Shown in pieces: positions 1,191-23,387 of a DNA stretch of 24,756 nucleotides (position 1 is the first letter of the stretch; each line of letters starts with the position of its first letter). Below the pieces are notes generated by a model. That model saw only the letters and a program-made list of their open reading frames with translations. It had not been told where the DNA came from and did not search any database. Source of the DNA: Nanobdellota archaeon (GTDB lineage Archaea > Nanobdellota > Nanobdellia > Woesearchaeales > DATDXC01); assembly GCA_043826105.1 (NCBI GenBank), contig JBDRQV010000077.1, positions 1 to 24,756 on the forward strand. Direction: 5' to 3'. The position numbers were made by a program, and so were the translations under genes.

Positions 1191-1448
1191 ATGCCAGAAG
1201 ATGAGATTGAAGGAGATGATGATATTTATTCAGAAGATGTTAGGGAAGACCTAGTGGATAGTGGTGCTATGAGTCCAGAAGAAGCGGGTTTTATGGCAGG
1301 CGCACACGACGACGGTCAGGGAGCCAAATGCAGAAAATGCGGCAGGCCTCTATCAGACGACTTTATCGAAAGAAGAGGAGATGACAGCGAAATATATCGA
1401 TTCTGTTCTGACGAATGCTGTGAAGAATATTTTAATAAGAAAGATTAA
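1191..1448 (+). CDS. Small acidic protein with C-terminal Zn finger (CxxC...FCSxxCC; TRASH/MYM-like)
   Basis: CRKCGRPL and FCSDECCEEY motifs; strongly D/E-rich N-terminal half; strong SD. Confidence 0.75.
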   Translation: MPEDEIEGDDDIYSEDVREDLVDSGAMSPEEAGFMAGAHDDGQGAKCRKCGRPLSDDFIERRGDDSEIYRFCSDECCEEYFNKKD

Positions 1449-1475
1449 TAAATATTGAGTTCAATAAATGCCTAT

Positions 1476-2342
1476 ATGCAGAAAAAAGGGCAGGTTGTCG
1501 CAGTATTCGCTATTGTTGGGATATTATTAGTATTCATATTTGCTATTATCCTCCAATTAAGGTTAGACTTGGTAGAATATAACTTAGAAAGATCAAAAAT
1601 AAGCATATCTTCTACACAGCACGACTTGATTTTCTTAAACACCTATTTTGAGGATTGTCTGGAGCAAGTAAGTAAAAAAGCAATCTTATTGACTGCCCAC
1701 CAAGGAGGATATATCGATACATCAGATGATATGATCCATGGAGATTATGGTGAAAGTGAATACATACAAGAAGACGGTTATAATCTGCCTTATTATTTAA
1801 ATGGGTCAGAAAAATACACAATTCCTTTAGATGAGATCGAGGAGAAAATTGCCAGATACGCAGTAGTTGAATTTGAAAGATGTATCAACAAAAGTATTCT
1901 GAAAAACCTAGGCTTTGATGTTGAACTGCCTTCTGTTGATTATGCAGCTGCTATGTTCAATTTTAATGTTTTAGATGTGAACAGTAATGTAACTATAAAT
2001 CAGGACGACATAAGAGTACACATAGACTATCCTATTAATATATCTAAAGGAAAATCAAAGATAACCATGGATAAATTTTCTGTAGAGATCCCATCAAGAT
2101 TAAGCAATATCTCACACATTGTACTTCCCATATTGAGGAGCATCGTATTAGACTACCCGGATCCCACAATAAATGATTATTTCTGTAAGAATGTAACTTA
2201 TCTAGAGAATAGTATTTATGCTGGGCTGATAAATATCTCAGCAATACATGAGGTAGGTAAGGAATACAAGATAAAATTTATTGGAGAAGAGCCAATATTG
2301 CAGTTTGCTGTAAAGAACGTCAACATAACTTGTACTGATTAA
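1476..2342 (+). CDS. Surface glycoprotein with class III (archaeal pilin-like) signal peptide
   Basis: MQKKGQ followed by a hydrophobic helix (ATG 1476 preferred over TTG 1455); 8 N-X-S/T sequons; QGGY motif; 4 Cys. Confidence 0.75.
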   Translation: MQKKGQVVAVFAIVGILLVFIFAIILQLRLDLVEYNLERSKISISSTQHDLIFLNTYFEDCLEQVSKKAILLTAHQGGYIDTSDDMIHGDYGESEYIQEDGYNLPYYLNGSEKYTIPLDEIEEKIARYAVVEFERCINKSILKNLGFDVELPSVDYAAAMFNFNVLDVNSNVTINQDDIRVHIDYPINISKGKSKITMDKFSVEIPSRLSNISHIVLPILRSIVLDYPDPTINDYFCKNVTYLENSIYAGLINISAIHEVGKEYKIKFIGEEPILQFAVKNVNITCTD

Positions 2343-2343
2343 G

Positions 2344-2490
2344 ATGCAGGAAGAATTTGAAAAACTAAAAAAGAAGATTAAAGAAAAATTTGAACAGACA
2401 TTTGAAGTAGATGGCGGAGACATACCTGTTCATGAAAGATACGTCAAAGATGAAGACATAAGGACTTTAAAGAAAAAGAAGAGATTATAA
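2344..2490 (+). CDS. 48-aa charged hypothetical protein (MQEEFEKLKKKIKEKFEQTFEVDGGDIPVHERYVKDEDIRTLKKKKRL)
   Basis: Hand translation; starts 1 nt after the upstream stop, fills the gap exactly, and its TAA overlaps the rsmI stop in the palindrome TTATAA (2485-2490). Confidence 0.55.
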   Translation: MQEEFEKLKKKIKEKFEQTFEVDGGDIPVHERYVKDEDIRTLKKKKRL

Positions 2491-3147
2491 TTTGTTGATA
2501 ACTATCGTGATTTCACCTTTAACAGTCCTGTCTTTTAATCTGGAATAGACATCTTTTGCCTTTCCTCTTATGAACTCTTCAAACTTTTTAGTCATCTCTC
2601 TCGCAACGCATATCTCTCTTTCAGGCATCATTTCAGACATCAATTTTAATGTCTTGATTATCCTGTATGGGCTTTCATATATGATTGCTGTCTTATTTTC
2701 TATAGACTTAAAAAGATCCATCTTAGCTTTCTCTTTCTTAGGTAAAAATCCATAGAATACAAACGAATCTGTTGCAAATCCAGACGCAATAAGGCCAGTT
2801 ATAGCAGCCGTAGCTCCTGGTACAGGAACAATCTCGATATCATTCTTTATCGCTTCCCTTATCAGGTAAAATCCAGGATCTGAGATGCCTGGTGTTCCAG
2901 AATCAGAGATAATTGAAATCTTTTTATTTTCCTTCAGATGGTCGAGAATATGGACTGTCTTTTTTTCTTTATTGAAATCATTGAACGATACTACTCTTTT
3001 GCCTATTATGCCATAATGGTTTAACAAGACAGAACTCCTCCTTGTATCTTCAGCTAAGATGATATCAGATTCTTTCAGAACATCTAATGCTCTTAATGTT
3101 ATATCTTTTAGATTTCCGATCGGAGTAGAAACAATATATAATGGCAT
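2485..3147 (-). CDS. rsmI: 16S rRNA (cytidine(1402)-2'-O)-methyltransferase
   Basis: LYIVSTPIGNLKDITLRA, AEDTR, SDSGTPGISDPG, VPGATA, YESPYR, REMTKKFEE, KGEITIVI motifs. Confidence 0.95.
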   Translation of the reverse strand: MPLYIVSTPIGNLKDITLRALDVLKESDIILAEDTRRSSVLLNHYGIIGKRVVSFNDFNKEKKTVHILDHLKENKKISIISDSGTPGISDPGFYLIREAIKNDIEIVPVPGATAAITGLIASGFATDSFVFYGFLPKKEKAKMDLFKSIENKTAIIYESPYRIIKTLKLMSEMMPEREICVAREMTKKFEEFIRGKAKDVYSRLKDRTVKGEITIVINKL

Positions 3148-14128: not shown

Positions 14129-17100
14129 TTATATTTTTAAACTAACTACTTTGCTCATGCCATGCTCATTCATAGATATCCCATAAAGTGTTTCTGCTTC
14201 AGATATGACAGAATCATTATGCGATATCATGATATATTGTGCTTTATCAGAATATTTAGCGACCAATTTTGCCAATTTTGCAGAATTGTGCTTGTCAAGA
14301 GCAGCATCAACTTCATCAAGTATATAGAATGAAGCAGGCTCATGTTCCTGTATAGCAAATATAAACGCTAATGCAGTCATTGTTTTTTCTCCACCAGACA
14401 GGCTCCTTATGTCCAAAAACTTAGTTCCTGTTATCTTAACCTTGATCTTCAAACCGCCATCGAATGGATTTTCCGGGTTTTCCAGCTCTAAAAATGCATC
14501 TCCTTTGCTCGATAGGGCAGAAAATGCCCTCTTGAAATGCTCAGTTATCACATTATAATGTTCCATAAATAATTCTTTCTTCTTTCCTTCGATCTCATCC
14601 ATTAATTTAACAACATCAATCCTTTCATTAGCAAGGCTGTCTTTCTTTTCTAATAAAGAGTTATATTCCTTTTCAACTTCATCGTAAATCTCTAAAGCCC
14701 TCATATTGACAAATCCTATCTCCTGCTTCATCTTTTCAAATTTGCCTATCTCATATTTTAATTGATCTTCATTCTTCTCAGTATCAAGCTTTACTCCCTC
14801 ATATTGCTGGAATTCTTGCCTTATGGCAGATAATTGCGCCCAAATTTCAGAATTTTTTAATGAAAGTGTATTATGTTTTATCTCGATCTGTACACTTTCT
14901 TCCCTCTTCTTATTTACATCTACCTCATTGTCTTGTATCTCTTTATTAAGGGCAGATTGTTTTGAAAATAATTCTTTGAATTTAGCATAGAATACTTTGG
15001 CTTGCTCTTCTTTTTCTTTCAATAGCTCCTGGCTGGATTTGGTTTCCTTCAATAATTTATTATTCTCTTCTTTAAATTCAGCTTCATCTTTAGCTAATTG
15101 TTTTAATATTGATTCTATCCTTTCTCTTTCTGGTTTGTGCAATGTATCTGATCTGACATCTATATTCTTAAGTTCTGATCTTAACTCAATGATCTCTTCG
15201 TTTGTCTGTCTTAGTTTCTCTTCAAATGTGCTTATCTCAGCTAACAATGCAGGATCCCTCAATTGGGTTATATTGGATTTTATCTGCTGTTTTCTTATCT
15301 TTAGGCCGGCGAATTCTTTGTTTATCTCAGTTATTTGGTTGACAGTATCATTGATAGATTTATCAGAAGCGATCTGTTGTAATCTCAATTCTTCTTTCTT
15401 ATTCTTGGTGATTTCAAGGTCGGTAGGCTCCAGATGGAGGCTTTTCTCTGTCCTTATTATCTCTCCTTCCAGGGCTGCCTTTGTCTGTCTTAATCCATTT
15501 ATCATCTCTTCATTATCAGCCCTTTTTTGTTCCATGCCATGGATGCTATTCTCAAGTTCAGCAATCTCTGATTTGCAGTTATCTATATCTTTACTTAGTT
15601 CCTTTTCCTTAAAGCCCATACCTTTTCTTCGTTTGTCCCTGAATCCGCCCTGCATAGCCCCGCTTAATTCTAACAAATCTCCGTCTAAGGTGACCATCTT
15701 TGACTTGCCAACACCCAGGCGTCTGGCAGAGTCTATATTATCTACTATTATAGTATTGGCAAAGATATATTCAAATGCCTTTTTGAATTTAGGTTCAAAT
15801 TCCACAAGGTCGATAGCCATGCCGTGGGATCCGTTTGATTGGCTTAAATTCTTTATTTGTGCTTCAGTTTTCTTAGAGCTTATCTTTGATAATGGGAGGA
15901 AAGTAGCTATCCCTAATTTATTCTGTTTTAGATATTTTATACAATCTGCAGCTATCTTATCATCTTCAACAACAATACTTTTGATCCTGGGGCCAGAAGC
16001 TATCTCTAACGCCAAAGCAAATTTTGAGTTAACATTTCCAAGTTCTGCAACAGTTCCATATATGCCTGGTTTTTTCAAGGACATAACTTTCTTAATTGCT
16101 ATATCTCCTAAAGAAGCTTCTCTGATGCTTACGTTTCTTGTCTCTAAAGCAGCGAGCTGTTCGTTGAACCTGTTCAGTCTATCTTTAGATGAGCCTATTT
16201 GTGCAGCAAATGAAGAATCTTCATTCAACCGTTTATTAAGCTCTAAAGTAGTCTTTTTGAATTGATCCCTCTTATGTTTAAGGTCATCAACTTCTTCCTG
16301 GTGTTCCTTCTCTATCTCAGCAACTTTTTTTATCTGTTCATCAATTGTGTTTATTTGATGCTGCAAAGAATCTTTTTCTCTGATAAGATTATGTTGTTTT
16401 TCCCTTAAGGTTTGGATCTGTTTCTGTAATTCATCTGATTTCTTATCAATTTCATCTATCTCTTTATCCAGGTCAGAAAGATTATCCAGCTTATTTTTCT
16501 CTCTAAAAGCCTGTACTTTCTTATTTAGGGTTTCTTTCTCTTTCTCTTTTTCAGCAACAGTCTTTTGTAATTTTTCTTTATCTTCAAGCAAACTTCCTAT
16601 CTTCCCTTCTGTTTCTTTTATAGTATTGCTTAAGTCCTCTTTTCTCTTTGTTATCTTGACCATCTCACTTTTTATGGTGTCTAATCTGTAATTCTTTCTG
16701 GCCAGGTCTATCTTCAATATTTCGACCTCTCTATTCAGGTTGACCTGTTCTACTTCACCCTTTTCTTCGATCTCTTTGGTTATGGAAATTACTTCTTTTT
16801 TCTTGATTTCACTTTCTTCCCTTAGTTTTCTTATCTTTTCGCTTGCTTTATCTAGATCTTGTTTTGTTTTCTGTAGTTTTTCTTCAAGATCTTTATGTTC
16901 AGCTTCTTTTTTATCTATCTGGAACTTTAACAGAGAAGCCCTGTACATAGTTATCTTTTCATTCATATCTTTAAATTTTAAAGCCTGATCCCTGTCTTTT
17001 TTCAGATCTTTTAGATAAGTGTTTCTCTCTTTGAGGACCAGATCTGCATCATTCAGCTTTTTTTCAACTTTATCAAGTTCAAGCAGCGCCTTATGTTTTT

Positions 17101-17620
17101 TTTCTTCATAGACCCCTATACCTGCGATATCCTCTATCAACATCCTTCTTTCAACAGGCGGCATCTCTACAAATCTGACTATATCTCCCTGTAATATGAT
17201 GTTATATCCATCAGGATTTATTTTTGCAATATTCAATAGATCTAGCACTTGTTCTCTTGTCCTGACATTATCATTTATCTTATATATGCTTTGGCCAGTT
17301 TCTCTGACTATCCTTGTAACTTTGACCTCTTCATCTTCTGTAGGGAATATCTTACTGGTATTGTCGAAATAAATGCTTACTTCACCATGTTTCGCAGGCT
17401 TTTTGGTCTTTCCACCATTATATATAAGATTAGATGACTTCTCAGCTCTCATCGATTTAGCAGAACTTTTGCCTAAAACAAAACAAAGGCTGTCTAGGAC
17501 ATTTGATTTACCAGAACCATTAGGTCCAAGAATTACACTAAACTTAGGTCCGAATAACAATTCTGTATGCTTTGCAAAGCTTTTAAAGCCATGCATAACC
17601 ATTCTATTTATTTTAGTCAT
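14129..17620 (-). CDS. smc: Chromosome segregation protein SMC
   Basis: GFKSF, Walker A GPNGSGKSN, Q-loop LQGD, long coiled coils, hinge (GIYG...VVEDD...TLDG), LSGGEK, Walker B ILDEVDAALD, ISHN. Confidence 0.97.
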   Translation of the reverse strand: MTKINRMVMHGFKSFAKHTELLFGPKFSVILGPNGSGKSNVLDSLCFVLGKSSAKSMRAEKSSNLIYNGGKTKKPAKHGEVSIYFDNTSKIFPTEDEEVKVTRIVRETGQSIYKINDNVRTREQVLDLLNIAKINPDGYNIILQGDIVRFVEMPPVERRMLIEDIAGIGVYEEKKHKALLELDKVEKKLNDADLVLKERNTYLKDLKKDRDQALKFKDMNEKITMYRASLLKFQIDKKEAEHKDLEEKLQKTKQDLDKASEKIRKLREESEIKKKEVISITKEIEEKGEVEQVNLNREVEILKIDLARKNYRLDTIKSEMVKITKRKEDLSNTIKETEGKIGSLLEDKEKLQKTVAEKEKEKETLNKKVQAFREKNKLDNLSDLDKEIDEIDKKSDELQKQIQTLREKQHNLIREKDSLQHQINTIDEQIKKVAEIEKEHQEEVDDLKHKRDQFKKTTLELNKRLNEDSSFAAQIGSSKDRLNRFNEQLAALETRNVSIREASLGDIAIKKVMSLKKPGIYGTVAELGNVNSKFALALEIASGPRIKSIVVEDDKIAADCIKYLKQNKLGIATFLPLSKISSKKTEAQIKNLSQSNGSHGMAIDLVEFEPKFKKAFEYIFANTIIVDNIDSARRLGVGKSKMVTLDGDLLELSGAMQGGFRDKRRKGMGFKEKELSKDIDNCKSEIAELENSIHGMEQKRADNEEMINGLRQTKAALEGEIIRTEKSLHLEPTDLEITKNKKEELRLQQIASDKSINDTVNQITEINKEFAGLKIRKQQIKSNITQLRDPALLAEISTFEEKLRQTNEEIIELRSELKNIDVRSDTLHKPERERIESILKQLAKDEAEFKEENNKLLKETKSSQELLKEKEEQAKVFYAKFKELFSKQSALNKEIQDNEVDVNKKREESVQIEIKHNTLSLKNSEIWAQLSAIRQEFQQYEGVKLDTEKNEDQLKYEIGKFEKMKQEIGFVNMRALEIYDEVEKEYNSLLEKKDSLANERIDVVKLMDEIEGKKKELFMEHYNVITEHFKRAFSALSSKGDAFLELENPENPFDGGLKIKVKITGTKFLDIRSLSGGEKTMTALAFIFAIQEHEPASFYILDEVDAALDKHNSAKLAKLVAKYSDKAQYIMISHNDSVISEAETLYGISMNEHGMSKVVSLKI

Positions 17621-17828: not shown

Positions 17829-18482
17829 TCAGAAATCCTCTAATCTTTTCTGATTTTTCATATTCTCATATTTTTTATAAGATGACCAGGAATGCCTGAA
17901 TATCTCGGGATATTTTTCCCAATTTTCCTTAAGAAATCTTTGTGTTATCTCATTAGAAGGATACCCCGGTCCACAATTGCCATATTTATTCTGGATCTTC
18001 TCTATCTCTCTGTCCCTGACTACTTTCGCAAGGATGGAAGCAGCCCCAACATATACTCTTTCCAGGTCAGCTTTATGCATGCATTCCAACTCAACCTTCT
18101 TGTTTTTCAATAGGTTCATCAAGTAATCTGAATAAGCTTTGCAATTATTAGAGGGACTGTCTACAGTGACCATATCAGGCTTTAGCTTGTTTATTATCTC
18201 AGCTGATTTGTGGGCTTCTAACCAATTCAGGTTCAGCTCTTCTGACTCAAGAGCCTTATCTATCTCAGCAGGTTCAGTTATGATTATCTCAAATGCTTTG
18301 ACAATTTTCTTGATCTTATCAAACATATATTCTCTTTTTTCTTTGCTAAGCAGTTTAGAATCCGTCACACCCATAGCTTCTAATTTAGGCAGGTCTTTCT
18401 TATCGATCAATATGCCTGCCATTACCATGGGACCTATCACAGGGCCTCTTCCAGCTTCATCAATACCGCATATCAATGTCAT
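17829..18482 (-). CDS. rnhB: Ribonuclease HII (archaeal type) with C-terminal PIP box
   Basis: GIDEAGRGPVIGPMV, DSK, VDS, HKAD, AASILAKV, GPGYPS; terminal QKRLEDF. Confidence 0.96.
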   Translation of the reverse strand: MTLICGIDEAGRGPVIGPMVMAGILIDKKDLPKLEAMGVTDSKLLSKEKREYMFDKIKKIVKAFEIIITEPAEIDKALESEELNLNWLEAHKSAEIINKLKPDMVTVDSPSNNCKAYSDYLMNLLKNKKVELECMHKADLERVYVGAASILAKVVRDREIEKIQNKYGNCGPGYPSNEITQRFLKENWEKYPEIFRHSWSSYKKYENMKNQKRLEDF

Positions 18483-19406: not shown

Positions 19407-19456
19407 TATCTCTATTTTTTTACTAATTAAATATATAAAAGTTTTGGAATCTATAT

Positions 19457-20050
19457 CTAAAACTCATCCAATCTTATATCCTTCCTAAATTTTTCTTTCT
19501 CGACCTTTAAGCTGCCCCAGTTATGAAACTTTTTAGGGATATTCTTTAAGAAATACTTCTTATTCTTCCTTTCTTTGATAAACTGTGAATCATAATAGCC
19601 TTCCCAGACAGAATCTTCATCAAATTCTGTCAGATCAGACAATATTGAGTTTTCAGGCATTATCTTCTCAAATTCAGGGAGCAGCTCATCAATTTTCTTA
19701 TCATAAATAACCAGATCAGTTGTCTTAGATATGACAAACGTTCCTCTTTTAGATTCGACCATTATGGTAAACATCGGAAACCTAGATAAAAACCATCTAG
19801 CTACCAGATCTTCAACAAAATGTTCAGGATCAATTGAGCAGTAAACAATAGAGTGCTTGCTTATCTTCATACGGCAGAATGCTCTTGACCTTTGGTAACA
19901 TCCAGCTACCTGCCTGTTCCAGTTATACACCCTTCTGGCTTCAGGTGTAGCTAAATTCTCGACAAAAACAACATCCTGCTTTCTGACTATATCATAAACT
20001 TTCTTGTCAAAATTCTTATGCCGGTTTGCCAAATTAAATTCTTTATGCAT
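19457..20050 (-). CDS. DUF4130 / TIGR03915-type putative DNA metabolism protein
   Basis: AFCRM...IDPEH...WFLSRFP and WEGYYDSQFIKERKN...IPKKF match the DUF4130 pattern; 8-nt overlap with the upstream rSAM. Confidence 0.8.
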   Translation of the reverse strand: MHKEFNLANRHKNFDKKVYDIVRKQDVVFVENLATPEARRVYNWNRQVAGCYQRSRAFCRMKISKHSIVYCSIDPEHFVEDLVARWFLSRFPMFTIMVESKRGTFVISKTTDLVIYDKKIDELLPEFEKIMPENSILSDLTEFDEDSVWEGYYDSQFIKERKNKKYFLKNIPKKFHNWGSLKVEKEKFRKDIRLDEF

Positions 20051-21167
20051 ATTCCATCAGCATTTTCTGTCTTTTTCCATCTAGTCTTATAAATGGCAAA
20101 GCCCTCTTAAGGACTATCCCCATATTTTTCAATTGATCCTTCTTGATAATCTTAATACTATTTTTCTGCATATCTAATATGCGATGCGCAGAAGTAGGAC
20201 CGATTCCAGGAACCCTTATCAATTCATTCCATGATGCTTCATTCAGATCAACACCACCATCAAAAAAATTTCGGGCCAAAGCAATTTTTGGGTCGATATT
20301 AGGGAGCATTTCATCTTCCATTATCTCTTTAAACTCTTTTAATGGGATATGGTACTTGCGTAGCATAAAATCAATATTATACAGATGATGTTCTCTCAAT
20401 AGGCCAATCTTTCGCTTACTTTCAAAAGGAGTCTTTGGAACAGGTACAAAAGCAGAATAATATCCTCTTTTAAGATTTATATTTTTATACTCCCAATCGA
20501 TCATCTTTAATATTTCCATATCAGTTTCGTCAGAACCTCCGACCACAAGTTGAGTTGTCTGGCCAGAGTGCAGATTCATCCTTTTTAACCATGCCTGTCT
20601 GCGTAATATGTCTATCTTATAATCTTTTACAGACGAAATCTCTGACATCCTTGATTTATTCGGAGCTTCCAGATTTATAGACATCCTGTCTGCAAACTCT
20701 GATGACTGCTTTATCAGCTCATAAGATGTACCCGGCAACACCTTAAAATGGATATACCCCTGAAATTTATACTTATTACGGATTAGATTACAGGCTTCAA
20801 TCATCCTCTCAGTAGTTGTATCGGGATTATTCTCAACTCCCGAACTTATAAACAATCCTTCTACATAATTTCTAACATAAAGGTTCATAAACACTTTGGC
20901 AAATTCTTCAGGCTCAAACCTCGTCGGTTTTTTATTACATCCTGCAGAATTAGCACAATATTTACAATCAAATGAACATGCATTAGAATATAATGTCTTC
21001 CATAAAGAGATGCATTGGCCATCCTCTGTAAACGAATGACAGATCCCACAACCAGCAGCATTACCTATCCTATCTGTGCCGCTAACTTTCCTGTTAGACG
21101 CAGAACTAGCGCAAGTGTCCCATTTAGCAGATTCACCTAAGATTTTAACTTTCTCTAACGGATCCAT
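20043..21167 (-). CDS. Putative DNA modification/repair radical SAM protein with helix-hairpin-helix (TIGR03916-type)
   Basis: AKWDTCASS, GICHSFTEDGQCISL, CSFDCKYC, YVEGLFISS, YIHFK, SINLE, QTTQLVVG, YYSAFVP, REHHLY, DPK, HhH LIRVPGIG. Confidence 0.92.
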   Translation of the reverse strand: MDPLEKVKILGESAKWDTCASSASNRKVSGTDRIGNAAGCGICHSFTEDGQCISLWKTLYSNACSFDCKYCANSAGCNKKPTRFEPEEFAKVFMNLYVRNYVEGLFISSGVENNPDTTTERMIEACNLIRNKYKFQGYIHFKVLPGTSYELIKQSSEFADRMSINLEAPNKSRMSEISSVKDYKIDILRRQAWLKRMNLHSGQTTQLVVGGSDETDMEILKMIDWEYKNINLKRGYYSAFVPVPKTPFESKRKIGLLREHHLYNIDFMLRKYHIPLKEFKEIMEDEMLPNIDPKIALARNFFDGGVDLNEASWNELIRVPGIGPTSAHRILDMQKNSIKIIKKDQLKNMGIVLKRALPFIRLDGKRQKMLMEYA

Positions 21168-21918
21168 TTTTTAATGTCTGTTTTTTTAATTCACTATAAG
21201 CATAATCAGCGATTTTCTTAAGATTAAACACATCATCCTCATTATATTCCACTAATAGGTTTAAATAATAATCATCTCCAGAACCTTTGAACATCTTCCA
21301 TAACAACAAAGGATCACCATTGTATATCTTCTCAATAATCTTATTCCTTTCTATACCTAATCTCTTTTCAATCATCTTTAATCCGCCTTTCAATCCGATC
21401 CTGGAACAAGCAACCCTTAGGTCAAAGTTAGGGACATTAGGCAACACATCAGGATATCTTTTTTTAATAAATGGGACATCAAAAGTTGCGCCATTAAAAG
21501 TGATGATCAGGTTATATCTGCTCAATTCCTCTCTTAACGATCCATAATCCATATTGATGCTCTTTATCATCGTCTTAGTATTTAACCCATCAAACAATCC
21601 GATCAATGTGATATCATCATAACTGCCAACTCCAGTTGTTTCAATATCTAAGAATACTGCCTGATCTTTAAAAAAATCATAGATCCTCCATGTCTCAGAT
21701 TGTGGTAATCTTTCTAAGAAATATCTGCTATTAAAACTATAGAGTGCACTTTGTGCATCTGCTAATTGTCTGTCATAATACTTTTTTCTATGATCTGAAA
21801 TGCCTCTTATCTTCTTAGCCTTTAAGAAATCATCCCAATTGGTTATGCCCTGGCTCCATATACTTTGTTCTGTTCTATATTTTACCCTTTTCAAAAAAAT
21901 GAAGCTTTGTTCGATCAT
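21145..21918 (-). CDS. RNase H-like DEDD 3'-5' exonuclease (YprB/RNase_H_2 family)
   Basis: FLDIETTG, FNGATFDVP, FDL, GGLKMIE, YNEDDV; 23-nt overlap with the rSAM start. Confidence 0.88.
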   Translation of the reverse strand: MIEQSFIFLKRVKYRTEQSIWSQGITNWDDFLKAKKIRGISDHRKKYYDRQLADAQSALYSFNSRYFLERLPQSETWRIYDFFKDQAVFLDIETTGVGSYDDITLIGLFDGLNTKTMIKSINMDYGSLREELSRYNLIITFNGATFDVPFIKKRYPDVLPNVPNFDLRVACSRIGLKGGLKMIEKRLGIERNKIIEKIYNGDPLLLWKMFKGSGDDYYLNLLVEYNEDDVFNLKKIADYAYSELKKQTLKNGSVRES

Positions 21919-21930
21919 CTGATTGCTCAG

Positions 21931-21980
21931 TTAACTATAATTTACCATGTTTAACCATATTTAACTATCTTTTCGATAGT
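21931..21980. promoter_or_regulatory. Candidate operator/promoter: four 10-bp tandem imperfect repeats plus a 6-5-6 inverted repeat upstream of the exonuclease-rSAM operon
   Basis: TTAACTATAA/TTTACCATGT/TTAACCATAT/TTAACTATCT (21931-21970); ACTATC-N5-GATAGT (21964-21980). Confidence 0.55.
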
Positions 21981-22103
21981 CTCCCTATTTAAATACGCTA
22001 CGCATATCTGTCCAGTGTCCAGTGCTTACTAGATTATTGATGATTAGGGCCTAAAAACTATAAATTTGCAGGAATAAGCCTTGTCTAGTGGTTTGATAAA
22101 AAA

Positions 22104-22136: not shown

Positions 22137-23387
22137 ATGTTCAGCTTTATTCGAAATCTATTCAAACAACCAGAACCAGATACAAGCTCTTTAAATCTAT
22201 CTGATCTTAAGGAATTCTTCAACCAACAATCGAGGGATTATACTAAAGATTTAAACGAAAATATTGAAAAATTGAAAGGTAAGATAGCCCTGGAGATACA
22301 TAATACAAGACAAAACTTAAAAGTTCTTAAAAACGCAGAGTTAAGGAACCAGAATGTGCCTATAAAAGCAAGACAATTTTTAGATGGCAATAGGGAATCT
22401 TATGTGAGGACAGTAAATAATCTGATCGAAAATATCTCTTTAGGCAATAGCTATGATTCATTATTCTCATTTTCAATCGATTTTGACCAAAAACTAGAAG
22501 ACTTTGCAAAATCAACAACCAAACCGTATAAGATTCTTCAGGAATTTCTTGCTCATGAATCAAGAGAGATAGCATTGAACATAAAAAATCTGGATTCTTT
22601 TTCAAAAGAACTAAAAAAAGCGATAGAAGAAAAAAATCTAGGCAAACTTAAGAAATTAAAAGATAATATACTAAGTATAGATAGTATAAAAGAAAGAAAA
22701 AATAGCTTATTGAAGGAATTAGCAGAAAAACAAAAGCTAAAAAAAGAAAAGCTAGAATTAAAAGAAAAACTGGTCAATCTTCATGAAGAGATAAAATCAA
22801 GCAACGAATATACAGATATGTTGTCATTGAAAGAGCTTAAGAAAAGGACAGCGATACAACTTGATAATATAGAGAGCAACCTATTTCATTCATTCTCAGT
22901 TATCAACGCTGCGTTAAGGAAATATGCAAGGATAACTCTAAAAGATGTAGATTTATTGGAAAACTACATAGACGATCCTGTCAATATGTTGTTAAAGGAC
23001 GAAGACCTGAACATTCTTGAGTTGTTGGAAGGAACAAGGAAAAACATACTCAACAACAGCATTGAATTAAAAGATAAGAAAAAAGACAAGACATTGGATG
23101 AGATAAACAAGCTGAACGAAGAATTTTTCAAAAGTTTCAAGGCAAGCTATTCCAATACTAAACAAAAGATGGCAGAATTAGATGAAAAGATATCCAATAA
23201 CAACTCTAAGGCAAAATTAGCAGAATTAAACGAAAAACTTGAAAATGTTATCCTTTCATTGCAGAATCTGGATGGTGCTATATCATCCCTAGAGCAAGAA
23301 TCTAAAAAGATAAATATTGAAAATATGAAGATAGAATTAGAAAATCAGATAAAAGATGTTTTTGGACTGGGCATATCTATTCACTAG
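22137..23387 (+). CDS. Coiled-coil-rich hypothetical protein
   Basis: 416 aa, K/E/L heptad-rich, no recognisable catalytic motif. Confidence 0.8.
   Translation: MFSFIRNLFKQPEPDTSSLNLSDLKEFFNQQSRDYTKDLNENIEKLKGKIALEIHNTRQNLKVLKNAELRNQNVPIKARQFLDGNRESYVRTVNNLIENISLGNSYDSLFSFSIDFDQKLEDFAKSTTKPYKILQEFLAHESREIALNIKNLDSFSKELKKAIEEKNLGKLKKLKDNILSIDSIKERKNSLLKELAEKQKLKKEKLELKEKLVNLHEEIKSSNEYTDMLSLKELKKRTAIQLDNIESNLFHSFSVINAALRKYARITLKDVDLLENYIDDPVNMLLKDEDLNILELLEGTRKNILNNSIELKDKKKDKTLDEINKLNEEFFKSFKASYSNTKQKMAELDEKISNNNSKAKLAELNEKLENVILSLQNLDGAISSLEQESKKINIENMKIELENQIKDVFGLGISIH

What the first reader, a model, noticed from the sequence alone, without database searches (positions are those of the whole stretch)
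19457..21918. Archaeal exonuclease-radical SAM/HhH-DUF4130 operon: the UdgX-linked repair module with an exonuclease in place of the glycosylase
Seen: three same-strand genes with 23-nt and 8-nt overlaps (translational coupling), encoding a DEDD RNase H-like exonuclease, a CxxxCxxC radical SAM with a C-terminal HhH DNA-binding motif, and DUF4130. Established: the TIGR03916 rSAM and TIGR03915/DUF4130 pair is functionally uncharacterised and in bacteria is typically linked to a TIGR03914/UdgX uracil-DNA glycosylase, which forms covalent DNA adducts. No UDG gene lies next to this operon. Inference: this is a distinct archaeal variant, in which radical chemistry on a damaged or modified base is followed by exonucleolytic processing. 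It could be an undescribed repair or anti-viral DNA-modification pathway in a reduced-genome archaeon.
Basis: partly seen in the sequence, partly recalled or inferred. Interest (0 to 1): 0.8.

Follow-up and report, generated by a model that had tools for sequence, protein, structure and literature searches.

The report
Repair exonuclease fused into radical-SAM operon
In one branch of tiny groundwater archaea, a widespread but uncharacterised two-gene radical-SAM "DNA repair" module sits directly behind a common 3'-5' exonuclease gene and shares its promoter; this exonuclease does not replace a uracil glycosylase, but the two units carry the same DNA-repair-type promoter box even in relatives where they lie apart.

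Summary
Three minus-strand genes (21918-19457) overlap by 23 and 8 nt. They encode a PF13482 DEDD exonuclease, a TIGR03916 radical SAM protein with a C-terminal HhH domain, and a short DUF4130 protein.

- Lack of a UDG is normal. Every DPANN locus examined has no adjacent UDG, and two Bacteroidota plasmids also lack it.
- The exonuclease is a widespread gene of its own. It occurs in 194 of 401 genomes of the phylum, against 44 for the radical SAM gene.
- The exonuclease stays intact where the radical SAM gene is decayed (G215) or not found (G274).
- In at least 22 of the 27 genomes that hold both genes, they are not adjacent.
- The three-gene block is confined to one Woesearchaeota-like subclade, where it persists in differing flanks.

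New here: a stereotyped promoter module, CACTGGACA (often tandem), then about 13 nt, then a TATA box. It precedes the exonuclease gene whether linked or not, and precedes the radical SAM gene where no exonuclease is adjacent. In this genome it also precedes radA and a XerA-like recombinase gene. The linked clade carries one copy, before the exonuclease gene.

The operon therefore looks like two co-regulated repair units merged into one. The chemistry remains unknown. Earlier notes of this scan reported the radical SAM/DUF4130 pair and this box on other DNA.

The parts
21988..22023 (-). Promoter module: tandem ACTGGACA-CTGGACA boxes (22023-22008), a 12-nt spacer GATATGCGTAGC-G, and the TATA box TATTTAAA (21995-21988).
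   Evidence: The tandem pattern occurs once in the window, against 0.07 expected by chance. The strict module occurs 5 times in the genome, against 0.07 in shuffles. The same module precedes exonuclease and radical SAM genes in relatives.
21919..21987 (-). 69-nt stretch between the TATA box and the exonuclease ATG. Relatives have 20-27 nt here.
   Evidence: Sequence read, compared with relatives' promoters.
21145..21918 (-). DEDDy 3'-5' exonuclease, 257 aa. It has an N-terminal helical domain (residues 1-86) followed by a PolB-proofreading-like exonuclease core.
   Evidence: PF13482 at 1.1e-28. D91, E93, D147, Y225 and D229 are invariant. The best PDB sequence hit is MrfB 8UN9, E = 1.2e-3. The AF2 model has pLDDT 92.8, and its best folds are archaeal PolB exonuclease domains and RNase D.
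20043..21167 (-). [quoted passage not shown] It overlaps the exonuclease gene by 23 nt.
   Evidence: C64-x3-C68-x2-C71 and C19 are invariant. The AF2 model has pLDDT 85.9 and shows a generic radical SAM barrel nearest HydE, BioB, LipA and ThiH.
19457..20050 (-). Short-form DUF4130 partner, 197 aa. It lacks the N-terminal ~95 positions of the bacterial TIGR03915 model. It overlaps the radical SAM gene by 8 nt.
   Evidence: It is adjacent to the radical SAM gene in all 11 intact DUF4130-bearing genomes of the phylum sample; DUF4130 was found nowhere away from a radical SAM gene except as the short DUF4130-like genes beside the exonuclease gene in G012 and G290.
19407..19456 (-). 50-nt gap with its own TATA-like TTTTATATATTT before the next gene (an alpha/beta hydrolase, 19406-18501). 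This is the probable 3' boundary of the operon.
   Evidence: Sequence read. The hydrolase and RNase HII neighbours are not conserved in any related locus.

Best explanation
The radical SAM + DUF4130 pair is the ordinary UDG-less form of the widespread, biochemically uncharacterised TIGR03916/TIGR03915 DNA repair or modification module. The exonuclease is a separate DEDDy 3'-5' DNA exonuclease of the YprB/MrfB family (PF13482). It is common in Woesearchaeota-like archaea, usually as a gene on its own. Across this order both units sit behind the same promoter module: a CACTGGACA box, single or tandem, about 13 nt before the TATA box and about 50-58 nt before the ATG. In this genome the module also precedes radA and a XerA-like recombinase gene. 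Elsewhere it precedes DinD-like and helicase genes. In one subclade the radical SAM pair came to lie directly behind the exonuclease gene. There the radical SAM gene has no box of its own, and the block is transcribed from the exonuclease promoter as one translationally coupled operon. Inferred mechanism, not shown: an unknown regulator switches the operon on with other recombination and repair genes. The HhH-bearing radical SAM enzyme, with DUF4130 as its nucleic-acid-presenting partner, performs 5'-deoxyadenosyl-radical chemistry on a DNA lesion. The exonuclease trims damaged or nicked strands 3'-5', as MrfB does, either on the same lesions or in parallel.
For: Families, overlaps and intact active sites.
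The three-gene block recurs in G035 and G074 and on metagenome contigs L065, L067/68, L069/70 and L071, with unrelated flanks. G215 keeps the same exonuclease/radical SAM junction but with the radical SAM gene decayed.
Six linked radical SAM sequences form a clade (SH-aLRT 97) inside the DUF4130-linked clade (99).
The 23-nt overlap is also kept in G215 and L068.
Promoter module: 36 matches in 262 kb of related loci against 2.0 in shuffles. Nearly all lie before exonuclease genes, radical SAM genes or their operon leaders.
Linked loci carry the box only before the exonuclease gene.
The own genome holds 5 strict modules against 0.07 expected, including one before orf103-radA and one before a XerA-like gene.
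Relatives carry it before Bro-N/DinD-like, helicase and integrase-radical SAM units.
In bacteria the pair belongs to DNA-damage regulons (PMC12392091; PMC3765255).
A DUF4130/radical SAM complex has been predicted by others (bioRxiv 10.64898/2026.08.19.745780).
Against: No expression data exist: the metatranscriptome runs of the same study hold none of the sequence. The regulator and the inducing signal are unknown, and 'DNA damage' is inferred from regulon membership only. In this window the ATG lies 69 nt after the TATA box, against about 23 nt in relatives, so the promoter architecture is atypical here. Two linked loci (L069, L071) showed no box within 330 nt. The substrate and chemistry of the radical SAM enzyme are unknown. 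The fold search gives only generic radical SAM neighbours.
Confidence: 0.6

Rival explanations
1. Dedicated three-enzyme pathway. The exonuclease is the obligatory downstream nuclease of the radical SAM/DUF4130 reaction and functionally replaces UdgX. Radical chemistry on a damaged or modified base is followed by exonucleolytic removal.
For: The trio persists in different genomic contexts, and the 23-nt overlap is conserved. In family f13 (G012, G290) an intact 139-146-aa DUF4130-like gene lies directly upstream of the exonuclease gene; in G290 the two overlap by 4 nt. No radical SAM gene was found in those genomes. This is a second, independently arranged DUF4130-exonuclease pairing. Nine of the 11 genomes with a DUF4130-linked radical SAM gene also have the exonuclease.
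Against: The exonuclease is in 194 of 401 genomes and the radical SAM gene in 44. The exonuclease occurs in 61% of genomes with the radical SAM gene and 47% of those without. The genes are unlinked in at least 22 of 27 genomes that hold both. The exonuclease survives loss or decay of the radical SAM gene (G215, G274). Linked and unlinked exonucleases interleave on the tree. The UDG is optional in bacteria too, so nothing needs replacing.
Confidence: 0.2
2. Adjacency without functional meaning. A two-gene cassette happened to insert downstream of a housekeeping exonuclease gene in one lineage, and the arrangement has simply not yet been broken up.
For: The distribution is narrow, 4 of 44 sampled genomes with the radical SAM gene. 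Insertions are tolerated inside the block: small ORFs, a LAGLIDADG gene and a CxxCxxCC gene. The module is decayed in the nearest relative, G215.
Against: Flanks are reshuffled while the block persists at exonuclease identities down to about 48%. Both units carry the same operator-like box when apart, so they are co-regulated whether or not they are adjacent.
Confidence: 0.15
3. Anti-viral DNA-modification or defence system.
For: Radical SAM enzymes and nucleases occur in defence systems, and the locus sits in a variable genome. A Bro-N/DinD-like gene shares the promoter box.
Against: No significant PADLOC hit for any of the three proteins. There are no neighbouring defence genes. The box is shared with radA and xerA-like genes. 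The pair is chromosomal and appears vertically inherited within clades.
Confidence: 0.05

Closest known systems
TIGR03916 / TIGR03915 (PF13566 DUF4130) 'putative DNA modification/repair radical SAM' gene pair of bacteria, with or without a fused TIGR03914/UdgX domain
   Same: The radical SAM protein scores above the curated cut-off. It has CxxxCxxC and a C-terminal HhH domain. A DUF4130 gene is translationally coupled immediately downstream. The module sits in a repair-type regulon, as in Acinetobacter and in SOS regulons.
   Different: DUF4130 is a short form of 197 aa that lacks the N-terminal ~95 model positions and falls below the TIGR03915 cut-off. There is no UDG domain or gene. The operon is archaeal, under a TATA-linked CTGGACA box instead of a LexA or DdaA site. 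An exonuclease gene leads the operon.
MrfB (YprB) of Bacillus subtilis, the mitomycin-C repair 3'-5' exonuclease (PDB 8UN9; PMC11194089)
   Same: Same Pfam family (PF13482). It is the best PDB sequence hit, with aligned ExoI (DxE), ExoII (NGxxFD) and ExoIII motifs. It plays a DNA-repair role and carries an extra non-catalytic domain.
   Different: MrfB is DEDDh with a C-terminal TPR domain and works with the helicase MrfA. The window protein is DEDDy (Y225), has an N-terminal helical domain, has no TPR domain, and has no adjacent MrfA-like helicase.
Proofreading 3'-5' exonuclease domain of archaeal family-B DNA polymerases
   Same: Best structural matches of the AF2 model (Foldseek E = 3.6e-4, about 200 aligned residues). 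It shares the DEDDy active site.
   Different: The window protein is a stand-alone 257-aa protein with no polymerase domain.
Lineage-specific third genes of the radical SAM/DUF4130 operon
   Same: A conserved core pair that has picked up one extra operon member in one lineage.
   Different: Here the extra gene is a nuclease that also exists independently and brings the promoter.

Membership tests
TIGR03916 (rSAM_link_UDG) | Whole-protein score above NCBIfam's curated cut-off | tested here: met
   356.7 bits against 343.5; 353.4 bits in the genome search.
TIGR03916 (rSAM_link_UDG) | Radical SAM CxxxCxxC cluster motif plus a C-terminal helix-hairpin-helix domain | tested here: met
   C64, C68 and C71 are invariant in 36 of 36 and 64 of 64 sequences. 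HHH_3 scores 9.1e-9 at residues 305-348.
TIGR03916 (rSAM_link_UDG) | Genomic linkage to a family-4/UdgX-type UDG (the 'link_UDG' in the model's name) | tested here: not met
   No PF03167 hit in the window or in the 60.9%-complete assembly. None is adjacent in any DPANN locus. The linkage is optional in bacteria as well.
TIGR03915 / PF13566 DUF4130 | Pfam DUF4130 domain above the gathering score, encoded next to the radical SAM gene | tested here: met
   69.1 bits against 27, model positions 6-142 of 146. The gene overlaps the radical SAM gene by 8 nt.
TIGR03915 / PF13566 DUF4130 | Full-length TIGR03915 architecture (243 positions) above the NCBIfam cut-off | tested here: not met
   65.1 bits against 112.25, covering positions 96-236 only. 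It aligns to residues 105-246 of a 254-aa Parabacteroides protein.
PF13482 RNase_H_2 (YprB/MrfB-like DEDD exonucleases) | Pfam score above cut-off and a complete set of DEDD catalytic residues | tested here: met
   100.6 bits against 22. D91, E93, D147 and D229 plus Y225 are invariant.
MrfB proper (MrfAB mitomycin repair pair) | DEDDh histidine, C-terminal TPR domain and a partner MrfA (YprA) helicase gene | tested here: not met
   Tyr stands at the His position (alignment). There is no TPR hit and no helicase gene in the operon.
Known anti-phage defence systems (PADLOC) | A significant match of any component to a defence-system model | tested here: not met
   Only E = 0.0035 and 0.0064 fragments.
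Spore photoproduct lyase (SplB)-like DNA repair radical SAM | Closest fold or sequence similarity to SPL | tested here: not met
   No SPL entry among 55 Foldseek hits with E <= 0.001. The top hits are HydE, BioB, LipA and ThiH. The PDB sequence search found only a ComEA-like HhH match.

The most novel reading that the evidence does not exclude
DUF4130 is an adaptor that couples a lesion-specific enzyme to strand processing. In bacteria it is fused to a UdgX-type lesion binder. In Woesearchaeota-like archaea it works with the PolB-like exonuclease, either together with the radical SAM enzyme (this operon) or alone as a further-shortened form (the DUF4130-like/exonuclease operon of G012 and G290). 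The operon would then encode a complete, undescribed radical-based lesion-excision pathway under an archaeal SOS-like regulator.
Probability: 0.2. Interest if true: 0.75.

Novelty: new variant of a known kind. Interest (0 to 1): 0.45.

Why it matters
The radical SAM/DUF4130 pair is one of the most widespread DNA-damage-linked gene pairs with no known reaction. This locus adds two usable handles. First, there is a natural operon fusion with a DEDDy 3'-5' exonuclease, and a separate DUF4130-like/exonuclease pair. Both point to substrates with 3' ends or strand processing. Second, there is a sharply defined promoter box shared with radA, XerA-like, DinD-like and helicase genes. That box outlines a candidate DNA-repair regulon in DPANN archaea, where I know of none described (own knowledge; a library search for the box sequence found nothing relevant). 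It does not reveal a new class of repair system, and the 'UDG replaced by an exonuclease' idea should be dropped.

Tried and rejected
- Complex prediction of the exonuclease against radical SAM + DUF4130: score 0.00, no support and no verdict. It is not evidence either way.
- PADLOC scan: nothing significant.
- SplB-like assignment of the radical SAM protein: not borne out by the fold search or the PDB sequence search.
- PDB sequence search for DUF4130: only chance hits.
- A conserved third neighbour in exonuclease-less archaeal loci: none found. The neighbours are a serpin, MatE, MFS, a GTPase, a kinase, a HerA-like protein, DUF192 and Bro-N.
- Conserved synteny around the exonuclease gene: none.
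- Further short DUF4130-like genes beside other exonuclease genes, searched with a custom HMM: none in the 30 sampled exonuclease loci.
- UDG presence as a correlate of linkage: not informative. UDG was not found in G215, G074 or G298 and was found in G035 and G203.
- Transcript evidence: the RNA runs of the source study hold none of the sequence, so no reads were laid.
- Literature: no paper in the library links UdgX with radical SAM or describes the CTGGACA box in archaea.
Full report
WHAT IS THERE

The window is contig C77 of a 1.46-Mb assembly in 239 contigs, 60.9% complete. The source is a groundwater metagenome. The closest radical SAM homologues carry the names Candidatus Woesearchaeota or Nanoarchaeota.

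Three minus-strand ORFs lie at 21918-21145, 21167-20043 and 20050-19457. They overlap by 23 and 8 nt.
- ORF 1 (257 aa) is PF13482 RNase_H_2, 1.1e-28.
- ORF 2 (374 aa) passes the curated TIGR03916 cut-off, 356.7 against 343.5 bits. It also has Radical_SAM and a C-terminal HHH_3 domain.
- ORF 3 (197 aa) is PF13566 DUF4130, 5.5e-19. It reaches only 65 of the 112 bits needed for TIGR03915, because it lacks the first ~95 model positions.

The start codons match the conserved N-termini of homologues.

THE PROTEINS

Exonuclease. D91 and E93 (LDIE), N142-G143-x3-D147 and Y225-N-E-x-D229 are invariant in 34 relatives. That makes it an intact DEDDy enzyme.
- Its only significant PDB sequence match is MrfB, the B. 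subtilis mitomycin-repair 3'-5' exonuclease (8UN9, E = 1.2e-3). The three Exo motifs align, and Tyr stands where MrfB has His (PMC11194089).
- The AF2 model has pLDDT 92.8. It matches the proofreading domains of archaeal family-B polymerases and RNase D best.
- An 86-residue helical N-terminal domain is conserved in the family.

Radical SAM protein. C64-x3-C68-x2-C71 and C19 are invariant, and C77 is nearly so.
- The AF2 model has pLDDT 85.9. It is a generic radical SAM barrel nearest HydE, BioB, LipA and ThiH.
- Spore photoproduct lyase is not among the 55 significant hits. The 'SplB-like' label used in PMC3765255 gives no mechanistic guidance here.

State of knowledge. No paper in the library assigns a reaction to this pair.
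- A 2026 preprint predicts a confident DUF4130/radical SAM complex and proposes that DUF4130 binds nucleic acid.
- In Acinetobacter both genes belong to the DdaA DNA-damage regulon.

IS THE EXONUCLEASE PART OF THE MODULE?

I sampled 401 genomes of the phylum.
- TIGR03916 is present in 44.
- DUF4130 is present in 14.
- A homologue of this exonuclease is present in 194.
- The exonuclease occurs in 27 of the 44 genomes with the radical SAM gene (61%) and in 167 of the 357 without it (47%).

The exonuclease and radical SAM genes are adjacent only in this genome, in G215 (same family) and in G035 and G074 (one genus). In at least 22 of the 27 genomes that hold both, they lie on other contigs or far apart.

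The radical SAM tree has three groups:
- a clade with no DUF4130 in the genome;
- a DUF4130-linked clade (SH-aLRT 99);
- inside that, a clade of six exonuclease-linked sequences (97).

Metagenome contigs carrying radical SAM proteins 68-82% identical to this one show the same order, exonuclease then radical SAM then DUF4130, but in unrelated flanks. The flanks are P5CR and a Na/Ca exchanger; a Big_7 protein and TrmB-EndoIII-Lhr; PIN and OmdA. A 66%-identical Woesearchaeal locus and an Altiarchaeales locus have only the pair.

On the exonuclease tree, linked and unlinked genes interleave. The exonuclease of G274, where no radical SAM gene was found, nests within the linked G035/G074 group (SH-aLRT 99).

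In G215 the exonuclease gene is intact and keeps the 23-nt overlap. The radical SAM gene there is cut to 174 residues, an unrelated 251-aa ORF follows, and only a 60-residue DUF4130 remnant is left.

The exonuclease is therefore an independent gene that does not need the module. The linkage is a derived, clade-restricted state that is nevertheless maintained.

IS AN EXONUCLEASE STANDING IN FOR A GLYCOSYLASE?

No.
- None of the DPANN loci has an adjacent UDG. Their other neighbours are unrelated genes.
- On bacterial plasmids I saw both known forms. Phaeobacter and Paracoccus have the radical SAM gene plus a 479-491-aa 'UdgX family' fusion. Parabacteroides and Chondrinema have the radical SAM gene plus a stand-alone TIGR03915 protein and no UDG.
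- UDG genes are sporadic in the lineage and do not track the linkage.

WHAT DOES CONNECT THEM

At 22023-21988 (minus strand) lies ACTGGACACTGGACA-GATATGCGTAGCG-TATTTAAA. The tandem pattern occurs once in the window, against 0.07 expected.

In the fetched loci the module is CACTGGACA (single or tandem), about 13 nt often containing CGYGTGAG, a TATA box, and then about 23 nt to the ATG.
- It precedes 24 of 34 exonuclease genes, linked or not.
- It precedes about 18 of 27 radical SAM genes that have no exonuclease beside them. In most it lies directly upstream, with the box 50-58 nt before the ATG. In three it lies before an upstream co-directional gene.
- There are 36 matches in 262 kb, against 2.0 +/- 1.5 in dinucleotide shuffles.
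- In linked loci the radical SAM gene has no box of its own. The only copy lies before the exonuclease gene.

In this genome the strict module occurs five times, against 0.07 in shuffles:
- before this operon;
- before orf103-radA (C62);
- before a XerA-like tyrosine recombinase gene (C186);
- at two further sites (C231, C82).

In relatives it also precedes Bro-N/DinD-like genes, a DEAD-box helicase gene, an Lhr helicase gene and an integrase-radical SAM unit.

This is the best evidence that the exonuclease and the radical SAM pair answer to the same regulator. It is also why I read the operon as a merger of two units of one repair-type regulon.

A SECOND HINT

In G012 and G290 (family f13) no radical SAM gene was found. 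There an intact 139-146-aa protein lies directly upstream of the exonuclease gene.
- It is homologous to the first ~105 residues of this DUF4130 (E = 4e-13).
- The two copies are 41% identical to each other.
- In G290 it overlaps the exonuclease gene by 4 nt. In G012 the same box precedes it.

This keeps alive a direct DUF4130-exonuclease relationship. I give that reading about 0.2.

MECHANISM AND ODDS

Shown:
- gene content, intact active sites and overlaps;
- clade-restricted but maintained linkage;
- a shared promoter module.

Inferred:
- co-transcription from the box/TATA promoter (about 0.85);
- a role in a DNA-damage-type response (about 0.6);
- radical chemistry on a DNA lesion presented by DUF4130, with the exonuclease trimming 3' ends either on the same intermediates (about 0.2-0.3) or in parallel.

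The complex prediction gave no support and no verdict. There are no expression data.

VERDICT

This is a real, lineage-specific variant of a known but uncharacterised module. The shared promoter box and the DUF4130-exonuclease pairing are the useful leads.

Noticed in passing
Own genome outside the window: C62:806-833(+), C186:7612-7639(-), C231:4238-4275(+), C82:1221-1250(-): Four further copies of the CACTGGACA-N13-TATTTAAA promoter module. They lie before orf103-radA, before a XerA-like tyrosine recombinase gene, before a 76-aa ORF, and before about 830 nt with no ORF of 60 aa or more (possibly an RNA or small ORFs). Together with the exonuclease operon they outline a small candidate repair regulon.
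   Followed up: partly
L087:2898-3317(-) with exonuclease gene 1804-2595(-); L088:2155-2595(-) with exonuclease gene 1385-2158(-): In G012 and G290 a further-shortened DUF4130-like protein (139-146 aa; the two are 41% identical) sits directly upstream of the exonuclease gene. No TIGR03916 radical SAM gene was found in those genomes. In G012 the CACTGGACA box precedes it.
   Followed up: partly
L078:5402-7761 (G215, same family as the window genome): Decaying copy of the operon. The exonuclease gene is intact, the radical SAM gene is truncated to 174 aa, an unrelated 251-aa ORF is in place of the rest, and a 60-residue DUF4130 remnant remains.
   Followed up: yes
L012:2657-3067(+), L010:1090-1512(-), L069:7098-7433(+): A small CxxCxxCC (PF03692) zinc/iron-chelating protein recurs inside or just after the exonuclease-linked operons. 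The PF03692 assignment was tested for L012 and is precomputed for L069; L010 is placed with L012 by sequence clustering only. It is absent from the window's operon.
   Followed up: no
L069:5147-6328(+); L007:2616-3629(+): Selfish or nuclease genes are inserted between the radical SAM and DUF4130 genes: a LAGLIDADG endonuclease in one contig and a YhcG/DUF1016 PDDEXK nuclease in another. The pair tolerates separation.
   Followed up: no
L074 (G203:C1:461678-465130): In G203 a family UDG gene (PF03167, 1.6e-37) lies about 850 bp from the unlinked exonuclease gene, convergent to it. This may be coincidence.
   Followed up: no
window 22137-23387 (+): The divergent 416-aa ORF has no Pfam or NCBIfam family. 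It belongs to a conserved archaeal hypothetical family of about 426 aa, seen in Nanobdellota, Nitrososphaerota and Methanobacteriota clusters. One related cluster is auto-named SbcC-like.
   Followed up: partly
window 21919-21987 (-): The exonuclease ATG lies 69 nt after the TATA box, against 20-27 nt in relatives. The extra stretch is the 10-bp TTAAC-type repeat array flagged in another first-stage note. It may be an added leader or a second control element.
   Followed up: no
L037, L040, L065 upstream of the exonuclease genes: In these loci the box and TATA lie 100-290 nt before the exonuclease ATG. An A-rich run plus GGCCGC follows in L037 and L040; in L065 the run ends in GGTGGC instead. 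This could be a small ORF or a leader RNA between promoter and gene.
   Followed up: no
Own genome C171:7738-8187 (L001): A second, very divergent PF13482 paralogue (126.8 bits) exists in the same genome. It sits on a long branch outside the exonuclease family studied here.
   Followed up: partly
window 17829-18482 (-) and 14129-17620 (-): RNase HII and SMC genes follow on the same strand after an alpha/beta hydrolase gene. These neighbours are not conserved next to the operon in any relative.
   Followed up: yes
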